Positions 6,001 to 9,000 of a DNA stretch of 64,000 nt are shown one piece after another; the stretch's first letter is position 1; the number at the start of each line of letters is the position of its first letter. The DNA is from Candidatus Hydrogenedentota bacterium (GTDB taxonomy: Bacteria > Hydrogenedentota > Hydrogenedentia > Hydrogenedentales > SLHB01). The position numbers were made by a program. Location: NCBI GenBank assembly GCA_020849535.1, contig JADLGB010000099.1, positions 26,006 to 90,005 of the forward strand, written 5' to 3'.

Positions 6001-9000
6001 CCTCAGCGACATGCCCATTTCCTGCAGCTCGCGTGTGATCTTGTCCAATTGGCTGATCTGCCGACTCAGATGGGGAGCCGTCACGTTCAGCGTTTCGATG
6101 GACTGGCACACCATGGACTCGGCGATCACCAATTCCCCAATGAGATCGATAAGGCGGTCGAGCCTATCCGCGTCGACCTTCACCGCCTCCTTCACTTCCA
6201 TGGGGGCCTGCTTTTGTTTCTGGGCGCGCAGGGCCAAGGCCACATCCTTCGCATCGACCTCGCCCGTCTGCACGAGTATCTCGCCCACCGGCATTTGCTT
6301 CTGCGGAGCCTCTTGTTTGGCCAGTGCGCGTTCGATGTCTTCCAGCCGGGCCGCTCCCATTTCCACCAAGATGTCGCCCAGATGCCTTCCCGGTTCCCGC
6401 TGCTGCTGCAACTCGAGGGCCTGCTCCAACTGCGCCCTCGTGATGACGACCTCGCGAATCAGCACTTCCCCTAGATGGAAGTCTCTCTCCGCGTCCGTCT
6501 GGTACTCGACAGCCTTTTCGACCGCTTCCTCCGTCGCCAATCCCGCACCGACCAGGATTTCTCCCAGTTTCTGCCCGCTCGACGGCGCGAGGCTGGCGCC
6601 CTCCGGCGGTTCTCCCTCCTGAGTCGCAGCGCCTTTGATTCGAACCACCAACGCGGGAAGCTCTTCTTCGATGGGCAGTTCCGCATCGCTCGTAAGCGCG
6701 TTCGAGACGTGTTGTACGAGGCGCTTCATGAAATCGACCGCCTCGAATGTCACATCGATGTTGCCGCCGATCAGCGCGATCTCGTTCTTGCGTGCCTTGT
6801 CCAGCAAGTTCTCGGACTCGTGGGCCAATGCCTGGATGTCCTCCAACGCCAGGAAGCCCGCCACTCCCTTGATCGTGTGGAAGGCCCGAAAAACCGCGTT
6901 GAGGGCATCAGCATCACCGGGATTCGATTCAATCGTGAGGAGATGCACGTCCGCATTGTCCAGATGCTCTTGCGCCTCGGACACAAACTCGGACAGCAGA
7001 TCCCGGTCTCCCTCGAGCCTCCTCGAGCCTGAGCGGGCTATGGGGGCGGCTGTGGGAACCGATACAGGCTTCTGACCGGGGCTGGCCGGCTCCGCCTTGG
7101 CCTTTGCGCCTCCCCCAAGCGATTCCAGCGGGAAGGCTACCTCCGATTCCGCCCGGCCGTCTCGGACGATACCTTGAAGTGCTTCGACCACTTTGGAAAC
7201 CACCCCCATCGCCTGGACGGGGTCTGCCACTTCGCTAAGGATAATAGATTCCAACAGGTTAGCGGACGCTACACAGCAGGCGGCCGTGGTATCCAGGCCC
7301 TTGTTTCGCGCCCACTCGGCCACCTGTCCGCACTGGGTGTGCATAGAGGCTAGTGCCTGCAAGTCTGTGGGTTCTGCCAGCACGAGTGCTTCGGACAGTG
7401 AGTTCACTATTCCGGGAATATCTTGCTCTTCCATCCTTCGCCCCAGATGGTGAATTGCCCGACGCTCCTGTGAGGCCAGACATCCCCCCTAAAAGGACCC
7501 CTACGCATTCTCCCGCTCTTCCGTCTCACCCAACTCTCAGGAAATAGGTCTTCGTCTCCCTAAGCCTACCACCAAAAGCCTTGGGCGTCAACAGCATAGG
7601 TAGTGAATTCCAATAGAACTCGACAATTGAACGGGGAATTCGGTGCATGCAATGCCGGTCGGTCAGGGTTTTCTATGGGCTGGTAATCCGTGATAACAAT
7701 GAATAGTGCACTTCCTGAAGTGGTGTCGGGGATTACCGCCGCACAATTCGCATTCCTGCCAAGACTTGCCGCCGATACGCGGTGCGGGGAATCAGCTTGT
7801 GCTCTCCTGAGCGAGGGACAGCTCCAGGGCTTTGCCCTTGAGTGCGGCTTCGATTTCCAGGCGAAGCTCAAGCAGACTTGTGGGACCGAACCCAACGTGG
7901 TGAGCCAGGATGACACCGTTCTTGCCCACGACGAACGTCTCGGGGACGCCTATGAGCTGGTAAGCGATGCTGGCCGTTTCCTGTATGTCAAGTGCAACAT
8001 TCATGTCCAGTTTCTGCGATGCCAGAAATGCGCGGACGATCTCGGGGGCTTCCGCTTGGTTCACCGCGTAGAATGCCACGCCCCGTTCCGCGTACTTGCG
8101 CAAAGCAGCCGTCAGGTCCGGCAAAGAGTTCACACACTGCACGCACCACGTCGCCCAGAAATCAAGCACAACGACTTTCCCCTCCTTCTGCAACGCCGCT
8201 AGGTCCAGGGTCCCGCCGTCGAGCAGGTCCAGGGGTACCTGCGGCGCTTGCTTCCCCACCATGGGGGAGACTTTGCTGGGGCGCGTTGTCAGCAAGTCGC
8301 GTAGGTTGCGGTGGAGTTCCGCGTCGGCCGGGGGCGTGAATGCGAAGCGGGAATCGGGCACTTCGGGATTAAATGACCAATTGAGAAACTCGAATGTGAA
8401 GAACAACTCCACCCGGGTAGGGGTCGCGCCTTCGAGAGAAGCCCGAAGCATAGACGAGTAATCCGCCCGGAATCGTGTCAGGGCCGGTGTATCGCCGGCC
8501 ATGATCCAAAAGTCTATCGGTACGCCCCCGGCCATCATCTTGAAGTGGTGCTCGGATGCTTCACCGCTCTGGGCAGTCCCCAGATAGTCCACGGTGGCGG
8601 CGCCGGCCAAGAGTTCCCTTGAGGGATCTGGGGAAAGCAGCGCCTCGATGACGCTGGGATACGCCGCCGTGATGCCAATACCCATGTCGCCAGACGCTGC
8701 CGCTACGGTAATATCCGCGGGGGCGCAAAGCTGTGTGTAACGCCCGAGGGCCGGAATGCTGAGGCTCAGCGTCGTTCCATCGCTGATAACCTCGGCGCCG
8801 CGATTCTCTCCTGTCAGATTCATCGCGAAGCAACTGGGTTTCCGCATGGCCCCGGCGTAGTCAACCACAATATCTTGCACGTCGTCTCCAACGACACGGT
8901 GAAGTGTCGTGCGGGTATCCACCGTGAAGCTCGTGAGGCCGGCACAGAATTGACTGAAAGAAGAAAGCACGGCCTGGGCGTCGTCCGGCAAAGAACCTGT

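What the first reader, a model, noticed from the sequence alone, without database searches (positions are those of the whole stretch)
6217..6573. CheA carries four tandem MshEN/T2SSE_N-like 24-residue motifs where the P2 domain normally sits
Between the Hpt domain (His in FRAFHTIKG, ~aa 185) and the dimerisation domain (~aa 415), the CheA ORF encodes four consecutive units:
- KLGEILVGAGLATEEAVEKAVEYQ
- HLGEVLIREVVITRAQLEQALELQ
- HLGDILVEMGAARLEDIERALAKQ
- PVGEILVQTGEVDAKDVALALRAQ

They fit the spacing of the published MshEN c-di-GMP-binding motif RLGxx(L/V/I)(L/V/I)xxG(L/V/I/F)(L/V/I)xxxxLxxxLxxQ. That motif pairs up in T2SS/T4P ATPase N-domains.

Caveats: the leading Arg is K/H/H/P here, one unit lacks the central Gly, and the spacers (about 7-10 aa) are longer than the 5 aa described for MshEN.

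If functional, this would wire c-di-GMP, or another ligand or partner of T2SSE_N folds, directly into a chemotaxis kinase. The same window encodes an active REC-GGEEF cyclase with its kinase and a degenerate REC-GGDEF.

In addition, aa 1-95 (nt ~7150-7434) look like a second helical-bundle module that lacks a phospho-His and precedes the true Hpt.
Basis: partly seen in the sequence, partly recalled or inferred. Interest (0 to 1): 0.62.

Follow-up and report, generated by a model that had tools for sequence, protein, structure and literature searches.

The report
CheA kinase with double c-di-GMP-sensor cassette
[quoted passage not shown] This kind of fusion was catalogued in 2016 and one such fragment was shown to bind, so this is a doubled variant of a known design and not a new principle.

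Summary
CheA (window 4969-7434, minus strand, 821 aa) has four 24-residue MshEN-type units at aa 289-312, 320-343, 351-374 and 382-405 (nt 6220-6570), each followed by exactly 7 residues. They lie between Hpt and the dimerisation domain, and there is no P2 domain.

- **Family match.** NCBIfam's curated c-di-GMP-motif model NF053729 scores 75.7 bits (cut-off 38). PDB hits are PilF, MshE and PilB. An AlphaFold model superposes on the MshE-c-di-GMP structure at 1.2 Å. Pfam T2SSE_N does not hit.
- **Conservation.** Gly3 is kept in all four units, and Gln24 in 24-26, of 26 CheA cassettes. The H/H/P at position 1 is lineage-specific; K, L and P are tolerated in experimentally proven binders.
- **Distribution.** The cassette, in fixed U1-U2-U3-U4 order, is contiguous with Hpt and P3 in about 47 of 135 genomes of the phylum. 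It is also repeated in non-kinase (pseudo-Hpt + cassette)n proteins.
- **Topology.** Two-unit relatives are of U1+U4 or U2+U3 type, which suggests a nested double bundle.
- **Prior art.** Wang et al. 2016 listed CheA-MshEN_N fusions and measured KD 2.6 µM for an Aeromonas CheA fragment.

Verdict: a new variant of a known kind. Its effect on kinase signalling is untested. The N-terminal P1-like bundle claim is supported.

The parts
4969..7434 (-). cheA, 821 aa; the only CheA in the genome
   Evidence: ORF list and translation. Pfam finds Hpt, H-kinase_dim, HATPase_c and CheW. PF02895 has a single match in the 93.7%-complete genome.
7150..7434 (-). N-terminal P1-like four-helix bundle (aa 1-95) without the HxxKG phospho-His motif; His32 is mostly conserved
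   Evidence: AlphaFold pLDDT 94.3 and pTM 0.85, with 4 helices. Foldseek matches CheA P1 structures: 1i5n at TM 0.73 and 2ld6 at TM 0.72. No Pfam family. hhalign against Hpt gives only 8% probability.
6712..7002 (-). Hpt (P1) domain, aa 145-241, phospho-His186 in FRAFHTIKG
   Evidence: Pfam PF01627 at 56.5 bits. H, K, G, H and E are invariant in alignment A3.
6499..6570 (-). Unit U1 (aa 289-312), KLGEILVGAGLATEEAVEKAVEYQ
   Evidence: 25.3 bits alone; Gly3 in 26/26, Gln24 in 24/26 CheA cassettes.
6406..6477 (-). Unit U2 (aa 320-343), HLGEVLIREVVITRAQLEQALELQ
   Evidence: (32 bits alone; U2+U3 together give 55.5 bits as one stretch over profile positions 2-53).
6313..6384 (-). Unit U3 (aa 351-374), HLGDILVEMGAARLEDIERALAKQ
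   Evidence: The highest AlphaFold confidence covers U2, the U2-U3 linker and U3.
6220..6291 (-). Unit U4 (aa 382-405), PVGEILVQTGEVDAKDVALALRAQ, about 10 residues before P3
   Evidence: (19.3 bits alone). It carries a position-specific signature A[KR]xVAxALRAQ, and the Arg is invariant in A1.
6007..6189 (-). P3 dimerisation domain, aa 416-476
   Evidence: Pfam PF02895 at 63.7 bits.
5446..5862 (-). P4 kinase (HATPase_c), aa 525-663
   Evidence: Pfam PF02518 at 61 bits.
5047..5433 (-). P5 CheW-like domain, aa 668-796
   Evidence: Pfam PF01584 at 74.7 bits.
1..4878 (-). Downstream che genes on the same strand: cheW 4351-4878, fapA/DUF342 2862-4274, cheX 2269-2820, cheY 1889-2263, cheD 1340-1828, cheR 514-1314, and a second cheD at 1-462 (runs off the window)
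   Evidence: Pfam scans.

Best explanation
**What it is.** The segment aa 289-405 is a conserved four-unit cassette. It forms two MshEN_N-type four-helix bundles of the c-di-GMP-receptor family, built into the tether between the phospho-accepting Hpt (P1) domain and the dimerisation domain (P3). This is the organism's only chemotaxis kinase, and the cassette occupies the place of the CheY-docking P2 domain.

**Most likely fold.** The units probably fold as a nested pair. U2+U3 would be the inner, canonical bundle. U1+U4 would be an outer bundle whose inter-motif loop hosts the inner one.

**Inferred mechanism.** The cassette would bind one or two c-di-GMP molecules through the same contacts as MshE and PilF:
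- backbone amides of Gly3 and residue 4;
- the hydrophobic residues at positions 2, 17 and 21;
- Gln24;
- a stacking residue at position 1.

Binding would change the geometry or rigidity of the P1-P3 tether, or a direct Hpt-cassette contact. That would alter delivery of His186 to the P4 ATP site and/or to CheY. The cellular c-di-GMP level would then bias flagellar chemotaxis output directly at the kinase.

**Shown here.**
- Motif identity and family membership by profile.
- Predicted fold.
- Conservation of the contact residues.
- Phylum-wide conservation.
- Presence of c-di-GMP enzymes, flagellins and MCPs in the genome.

**Inferred, not shown.**
- Ligand binding by this protein.
- Stoichiometry.
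- Nested topology.
- Any effect on kinase activity.
For: **Family membership.**
- NF053729 scores 75.7 bits against a cut-off of 38.
- PDB hits are PilF (2e-15), MshE 5HTL (1.6e-5) and PilB.
- The AF2 model (8 helices, pLDDT 75.5) matches c-di-GMP-bound MshE at rmsd 1.2 Å over 57 columns. It matches PilF GSPII-B at 1.3 Å, with Foldseek probability 1.00.

**Contact residues are conserved.** Among 26 CheA cassettes:
- Gly3 is present in 26/26 in all four units.
- Gln24 is present in 24-26/26.
- Leu6 is present in at least 24/26.
- Position 1 is K or R in most.

**Published binding data.**
- Mutation of G11 abolishes binding in MshE, and the isolated MshEN_N subdomain suffices (KD 0.35 µM) (PMC5013675).
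- An Aeromonas veronii CheA fragment binds with KD 2.6 µM.
- K or L at position 1 gives a KD of about 6 nM in PilF GSPII-B.
- PilF GSPII-C has three motifs and Pro at position 1 of motif II, and it binds with a KD of about 0.3-0.5 µM (PMC11731258). My alignment shows a 7-residue spacer between its motifs I and II. GSPII-C is the best PDB match to U2-U4.

**Selection on the cassette.**
- A contiguous Hpt-cassette-P3 match is found in about 47 of 135 genomes of the phylum.
- The U1-U2-U3-U4 order is position-specific, including in sequences not used to train the unit models.

**Genome context.** The genome has 1 CheA, 12 GGDEF, 11 PilZ, 5 flagellin and 8 MCP matches.

**Nested topology.**
- U2+U3 is the only pair that matches the 53-position profile as a single stretch (55.5 bits).
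- AF2 confidence is highest across U2, its linker and U3 (82-90), and lower at the U1-U2 linker (61) and the U3-U4 linker (70).
- Related CheAs with only two units are of U1+U4 type (G069, G124, and G113 with a 13-residue loop) or of U2+U3 type (P0039).
Against: - No binding or kinase data exist for this protein or for any four-unit CheA cassette.
- Position 1 is His in U2 and U3, a residue not tested in the literature I read. Only unit 1 fits the published relaxed pattern.
- U2 has Val at the 'G' position 10.
- U4 has Glu at the hydrophobic position 11. An I19R change at that position is among those listed for the non-binder XpsE.
- U1 and U4 have Val at the Leu positions 17 and 21, so the outer site may be weak or dead.
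- Pfam T2SSE_N does not match.
- Some MshEN-family domains (XpsE, PilF GSPII-A) do not bind c-di-GMP despite close similarity.
- The Foldseek E-values are weak (0.09-0.5) because the domain is small.
- I could not inspect model coordinates, so U1-U4 packing is not seen directly.
- Covariation analysis was inconclusive.
Confidence: 0.6

Rival explanations
1. The cassette is a ligand-independent structural or docking module. It would be an MshEN_N-derived helical domain that has taken over the tether or partner-docking role of P2, for CheY, CheX, FapA or a polar landmark, and it would not sense any nucleotide.
For: - It sits exactly where P2 is missing.
- T2SSE_N-family domains are also protein-binding modules. 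PilB N-terminal domain-PilZ complexes appear among the weak fold hits.
- Known family members have lost c-di-GMP binding (XpsE, PilF GSPII-A).
- Positions 1, 10 and 11 deviate in this protein.
- In the non-kinase (pseudo-Hpt + cassette)n proteins the Hpt-like parts often lack the phospho-His, which suggests a scaffold use.
Against: - Gly3 is invariant, and Gln24 invariant or nearly so (24-26 of 26), in all four units at about 35-45% overall identity. These are the residues that contact the guanines. Non-binders such as XpsE have lost them.
- A CheA MshEN_N fragment from Aeromonas does bind c-di-GMP.
Confidence: 0.25
2. The cassette is a c-di-GMP receptor, but it folds as two serial bundles (U1+U2 and U3+U4), like a tandem (MshEN_N)2, and not as nested pairs.
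For: - (MshEN_N)2 tandems are catalogued, for example in Geobacter lovleyi CheX.
- All three spacers are the same length, 7 aa.
- The U1+U2 pair scores 48.5 bits and U3+U4 scores 37.7 bits on NF053729.
- Mutual information does not clearly separate the pairings.
Against: - The U1+U2 and U3+U4 scores come from separate half-matches and not from one contiguous 53-position match.
- AF2 confidence dips at the U1-U2 and U3-U4 linkers and peaks at the U2-U3 linker.
- Natural two-unit CheAs are of U1+U4 and U2+U3 types.
Confidence: 0.3
3. The cassette senses a different cyclic dinucleotide, such as 3'3'-cGAMP, or another ligand, and not c-di-GMP.
For: [quoted passage not shown]
- The His residues at position 1 of U2 and U3 are unusual and could alter specificity.
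Against: - The guanine-reading backbone amides (Gly3 and residue 4) and Gln24 are conserved.
- Wang et al. describe the MshEN domain as specific for c-di-GMP.
- The genome has 12 GGDEF domains.
- I did not search for cGAMP synthases.
Confidence: 0.05

Closest known systems
Aeromonas veronii CheA (EKB11881), the CheA-MshEN_N fusion of Wang et al. 2016 (Nat Commun 7:12481, PMC5013675; Suppl. Tables 4 and 6)
   Same: An MshEN_N-type c-di-GMP motif domain sits directly upstream of the CheA dimerisation domain. Its fragment 261-390 binds c-di-GMP with KD 2.6 µM.
   Different: The published architecture keeps the CheY-binding P2 domain and has one two-motif domain. This CheA has no P2, four motifs in a fixed U1-U4 cassette, 7-residue spacers and an extra N-terminal P1-like bundle. 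It also comes from a different phylum: the published range is Actinobacteria and Proteobacteria.
Thermus thermophilus PilF GSPII-C and GSPII-B domains (PDB 6F8L, 8PDK; Neissner et al. 2024, PMC11731258)
   Same: - PilF is the best PDB sequence match (2e-15; U2-U4 align to PilF 303-386).
- It has more than two consecutive motifs, a 7-residue spacer and Pro at position 1 of one motif.
- It binds c-di-GMP without Arg at position 1.
- The fold matches at 1.3 Å.
   Different: - PilF is a type IV pilus ATPase.
- Its GSPII domains carry the alpha/beta C-subdomain, which is absent here.
- It has three motifs and not four.
- No kinase is attached.
Vibrio cholerae MshE N-terminal domain (MshEN, PDB 5HTL)
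   Same: It has the 24-residue motif pair that forms a four-helix bundle. The match is rmsd 1.2 Å over 57 columns at 38% identity. The curated profile NF053729 is matched above its cut-off.
   Different: MshE has a 5-residue spacer, Arg at both position-1 sites and an MshEN_C subdomain, and it is fused to a secretion ATPase.
(MshEN_N)2-CheX of Geobacter lovleyi (Glov_2742) in the Wang et al. 2016 survey
   Same: It has a doubled MshEN_N module fused to a chemotaxis signalling protein.
   Different: The partner domain there is the phosphatase CheX and not the kinase. The cheX in this window (2269-2820) showed only the CheX Pfam family.

Membership tests
MshEN_N-type c-di-GMP-binding domain (GSPII N-subdomain) | Curated profile of the 53-residue double motif (NCBIfam NF053729) matched above its cut-off | tested here: met
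   75.7 bits against a cut-off of 38, E = 1.7e-21, in 3 stretches. U2+U3 alone give 55.5 bits as one stretch over profile positions 2-53.
MshEN_N-type c-di-GMP-binding domain (GSPII N-subdomain) | Two 24-residue motifs (R/K/L)LGxx(L/V/I)(L/V/I)xxG(L/V/I)(L/V/I)xxxxLxxxLxxQ joined by a short spacer | tested here: inconclusive
   LG at positions 2-3 (VG in U4), a hydrophobic residue at 6-7, 17 and 21, and Gln24 are present in all four units. Deviations are position 1 = K/H/H/P, position 10 = V in U2, position 11 = E in U4, Val for Leu at position 17 of U1 and U4 and position 21 of U1, and a 7-residue spacer where the published one is 5. Family-wide the consensus fits.
MshEN_N-type c-di-GMP-binding domain (GSPII N-subdomain) | Four-helix bundle superposable on ligand-bound MshE or PilF | tested here: met
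   The AF2 model matches 5HTL at rmsd 1.2 Å over 57 columns and 8PDK at 1.3 Å, with probability 1.00. This rests on a predicted structure, not an experimental one.
MshEN_N-type c-di-GMP-binding domain (GSPII N-subdomain) | Binds c-di-GMP | not testable with these tools
   This needs ITC or DRaCALA. The nearest tested case is the A. veronii CheA fragment, KD 2.6 µM.
Pfam T2SSE_N (PF05157), the full MshEN/GSPII domain | Match to the whole-domain HMM, including the alpha/beta C-subdomain | tested here: not met
   No PF05157 hit on the full protein (E up to 1) or on the isolated segment (E up to 10). There is no room for an MshEN_C subdomain between U4 (ends at aa 405) and P3 (starts at aa 416).
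CheA chemotaxis histidine kinase | Hpt with the HxxKG phospho-His, plus P3 dimerisation, P4 HATPase and P5 CheW-like domains | tested here: met
   Pfam PF01627, PF02895, PF02518 and PF01584 are all above their cut-offs. NCBIfam CheA models align over aa 148-799 at 468 bits, which is below the equivalog cut-off of 793.
CheA chemotaxis histidine kinase | P2 CheY/CheB-docking domain between P1 and P3 | tested here: not met
   No P2 family is found at E up to 1. Only about 47 residues lie between Hpt and U1.
[quoted passage not shown] | A single MshEN_N after a retained P2 | tested here: not met
   There are four units and no P2. The feature shared with the published design is an MshEN_N module immediately before P3.
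Hpt / CheA P1 domain (for aa 1-95) | Four-helix up-down bundle of P1 topology | tested here: met
   pLDDT is 94.3. Foldseek gives 1i5n at TM 0.73 and rmsd 2.0, and 2ld6 at TM 0.72.
Hpt / CheA P1 domain (for aa 1-95) | HxxKG phospho-acceptor motif and a sequence-profile match | tested here: not met
   There is no Pfam Hpt hit. hhalign against the Hpt alignment gives 8% probability, and His32 aligns four residues before the acceptor position.

The most novel reading that the evidence does not exclude
Hpt plus the U1-[U2-U3]-U4 cassette would be an autonomous, nested double c-di-GMP receptor that gates a phosphotransfer domain. In CheA it would make the sole chemotaxis kinase of a whole phylum (and of some Planctomycetota) directly second-messenger-controlled. 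The same cassette, attached to degenerate Hpt domains, would be reused two or three times in non-kinase proteins, which would then act as c-di-GMP-dependent scaffolds or decoys of the chemotaxis pathway.
Probability: 0.3. Interest if true: 0.65.

Novelty: new variant of a known kind. Interest (0 to 1): 0.4.

Why it matters
Known routes by which c-di-GMP affects swimming act at the motor (YcgR-type PilZ proteins), at receptors or their methylation (PilZ-domain receptors, MapZ-CheR), or on gene expression (my general knowledge, not tested here). I found no study showing direct control of a CheA kinase, even though the fusion was catalogued in 2016 and one fragment was shown to bind.

This case offers a clean system for testing that idea. 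There is one CheA per genome, no P2, and a doubled, strongly conserved cassette. Natural two-unit variants of both pair types are available for comparison.

If the nested-bundle reading holds, it would also be an example of domain insertion within a 53-residue ligand-binding domain. The practical value is moderate, because the organism is uncultured and the principle is anticipated in the literature.

Tried and rejected
No hit on the protein or on the segment. I rejected it as a refutation because the model spans the C-subdomain that is absent here, and NCBIfam's motif-level model does match. A weak DUF4388/PATAN hit (21 bits, below cut-off) reflects the same helical motif.
- **Covariation (APC-corrected mutual information on 122 cassettes, Neff about 108).** This was meant to decide nested versus serial pairing. 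It was inconclusive: U2-U3 has 22 of the top 80 inter-unit pairs, the top single pair is U1-U4, and there is no clear separation.
- **hhalign of the N-terminal domain against Hpt.** Probability is only 8%, and the PDB profile search is dominated by designed helical proteins. Only the fold comparison supports the P1-like reading.
- **Link between CheA and the window's REC-GGEEF/kinase pair.** They are about 38 kb apart with unrelated genes between them, so there is no evidence of a functional link.
- **Model coordinates.** I could not read them, so U1-U4 contacts in the AlphaFold model could not be checked. Only pLDDT and secondary structure were available.
- **Literature searches for an experimental study of c-di-GMP acting on CheA through MshEN.** These found only the 2016 survey and reviews citing it.
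Full report
**1. Observation**

The minus-strand ORF at window 4969-7434 encodes an 821-aa CheA. Pfam places the domains as follows:
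- Hpt at aa 145-241, with His186 in FRAFHTIKG;
- the dimerisation domain at aa 416-476;
- HATPase_c at aa 525-663;
- the CheW-like domain at aa 668-796;
- no P2 family.

The four quoted 24-residue units are present verbatim at aa 289-312, 320-343, 351-374 and 382-405 (nt 6220-6570). Each is followed by exactly seven residues, so the period is 31 aa.

**2. Are they MshEN motifs?**

Evidence that they are:
- NCBIfam's curated model NF053729 ('cyclic di-GMP-binding domain, MshE-related', 53 positions) scores 75.7 bits against a cut-off of 38, with E = 1.7e-21.
- Weaker hits go to the MshEN regions of NfrB and EpsG.
- A phmmer search of the PDB finds T. thermophilus PilF (2e-15; U2-U4 align to GSPII-C residues 303-386), V. 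cholerae MshE 5HTL (1.6e-5) and several PilB proteins.
- An AlphaFold model of aa 280-412, built on a 15-sequence alignment, has eight helices and pLDDT 75.5.
- Foldseek places the model on c-di-GMP-bound MshE at rmsd 1.2 Å over 57 columns and on PilF GSPII-B at 1.3 Å, with probability 1.00. The E-values are weak, as expected for a domain this small.

Pfam T2SSE_N does not match. That model includes the alpha/beta C-subdomain, which is absent here. Wang et al. showed that the N-subdomain alone binds c-di-GMP with KD 0.35 µM.

**3. Do the deviations matter?**

- Position 1 is K/H/H/P in this protein. Neissner et al. 2024 showed that PilF GSPII-B binds with a KD of about 6 nM using Lys and Leu at position 1.
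- GSPII-C has three motifs and Pro at position 1 of motif II, and it binds with a KD of about 0.3-0.5 µM. My alignment shows a 7-residue spacer between its motifs I and II.
- Gly3 is critical: mutation of G11 abolishes binding in MshE. It is present in all four units here.
- Among 26 CheA cassettes, Gly3 is present in 26/26 in every unit, Gln24 in 24-26/26, Leu6 in at least 24/26, and position 1 is K or R in most. The His residues are therefore a local peculiarity. The closest homologues read K/H/Q/P and K/H/P/P.
- U4 is the most degenerate unit: Glu at core position 11 and Val at position 17.

**4. Distribution**

- A full-library phmmer search with the segment gave 1772 proteins at E ≤ 0.001.
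- Domain mapping of the best 150 plus the earlier hits found about 30 CheA clusters with the cassette directly before P3. Many also carry the same N-terminal domain, and some carry a second Hpt.
- In the window's phylum, about 47 of 135 genomes have a contiguous Hpt-cassette-P3 match. The closest named homologue is a 'Candidatus Hydrogenedentes' CheA at 86% identity over the segment.
- Unit-specific HMMs show a fixed U1-U2-U3-U4 order. This holds also in sequences not used for training.
- The same order appears in each copy within non-kinase proteins built of (pseudo-Hpt + cassette) x2-3.

**5. Topology**

Three observations favour a nested arrangement, U1-[U2-U3]-U4:
- Only U2+U3 matches the 53-position profile as one stretch (55.5 bits). 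U1+U2 and U3+U4 score through separate half-matches.
- AlphaFold confidence is highest across U2, the U2-U3 linker and U3 (82-90). It dips at the U1-U2 linker (61) and the U3-U4 linker (70).
- Related CheAs with two units are of U1+U4 type or of U2+U3 type. The U1+U4 cases are G069 and G124 with a 7-residue loop, and G113 with a 13-residue loop. The U2+U3 case is P0039.

Mutual-information analysis did not settle the question, and I could not inspect the model coordinates. I put nested at roughly 55% and serial at roughly 30%.

**6. Context**

- The gene heads an operon in the order cheA-cheW-fapA-cheX-cheY-cheD-cheR-cheD'.
- The genome is 93.7% complete. It has one CheA, eight MCP matches, five flagellin matches, 12 GGDEF matches, 11 PilZ matches and 19 MshEN-motif matches, mostly in open frames of about 540-770 aa that I did not annotate.
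- The window's REC-GGEEF (with an RxxD I-site) and its PAS kinase, and the REC-GGGHF protein, are real. They are distant from cheA.

**7. N-terminal domain**

- aa 1-95 fold as a confident four-helix bundle (pLDDT 94.3).
- The best natural fold matches are CheA P1 domains: 1i5n at TM 0.73 and 2ld6 at TM 0.72.
- There is no HxxKG motif and no Pfam Hpt match. hhalign against the Hpt alignment gives only 8% probability.
- His32 is kept in most homologues. It aligns one helical turn before the acceptor position.

**8. Prior art and novelty**

- Wang et al. 2016 state that MshEN associates with CheA and CheX.
- They report KD 2.6 µM for its fragment 261-390.
- I found no later experimental work on kinase control.
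- Earlier notes of this scan describe the same fusion in many genomes, including a four-unit Hydrogenedens case. I checked the claim about 2016 binding data myself.

The case here has four units, no P2, a probably nested fold and phylum-wide conservation. It is a new variant of a known kind.

**9. Mechanism**

This part is inferred. c-di-GMP would bind the inner site and possibly the outer site. Binding would stiffen or re-orient the P1-P3 tether, or an Hpt-cassette contact. That would change delivery of His186 to P4 and/or to CheY. The co-inheritance of Hpt-like domains with the cassette outside kinases favours a direct Hpt-cassette coupling.

My confidence:
- about 0.9 that the fold is MshEN_N-type;
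- about 0.65 that it binds c-di-GMP;
- about 0.5 that binding regulates kinase output.

Noticed in passing
P0004-P0006, P0047-P0062 (metagenomic proteins; not in the window): Non-kinase proteins of about 780-1180 aa are built from two or three repeats of (Hpt-like domain + the same U1-U4 cassette). Some carry the same N-terminal P1-like bundle. The three with precomputed Pfam hits (P0004-6) show thrombospondin-type-3 hits, two also dockerin; the one sequence read in full (P0004) has a C-terminal hydrophobic stretch. Several of the Hpt-like parts lack the HxxKG His. Their function is unknown.
   Followed up: partly
L007 (G069), L008 (G124), L009 (G113), P0039: CheAs of the same phylum (G069, G124, G113) and one metagenomic CheA of unknown origin (P0039) carry only two units. 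Three are of U1+U4 type, one of them with a 13-residue inter-motif loop, and one is of U2+U3 type. They form a natural deletion/insertion series for testing the nested-bundle idea.
   Followed up: partly
window 7150-7434 (-), CheA aa 1-95: This P1-like four-helix bundle has no Pfam family. It keeps a mostly conserved His32 and an invariant Asp24. In some Planctomycetota-type CheAs the pair (N-domain + Hpt) is itself duplicated.
   Followed up: partly
window 1-4878 (-): The che operon contains two cheD paralogues flanking cheR, cheX (no cheC seen), and a fapA/DUF342 gene between cheW and cheX. No cheB or MCP gene lies within the window part of the operon.
   Followed up: no
window 29601-33452 (+): A 1283-aa ORF combines an alpha/beta-hydrolase region with a Pfam PF03497 (Anthrax_toxA-type nucleotidyl cyclase) domain (E = 6e-32). 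It is divergent from a 1338-aa HEAT-repeat protein at 25052-29068.
   Followed up: no
window 45568-48773 (-) and 16511-17422 (+): A REC-GGEEF diguanylate cyclase with an intact RxxD I-site lies directly downstream of a PAS-HisKA-HATPase kinase that also gives a weak, sub-threshold GAF hit. A separate REC protein has a degenerate GGGHF site that Pfam GGDEF no longer detects.
   Followed up: partly
window 7792-9246 (-): The gene upstream of cheA encodes a DUF2092 (LolA-like) domain fused to a TlpA/AhpC-type thioredoxin domain. It is separated from cheA by about 360 nt.
   Followed up: no
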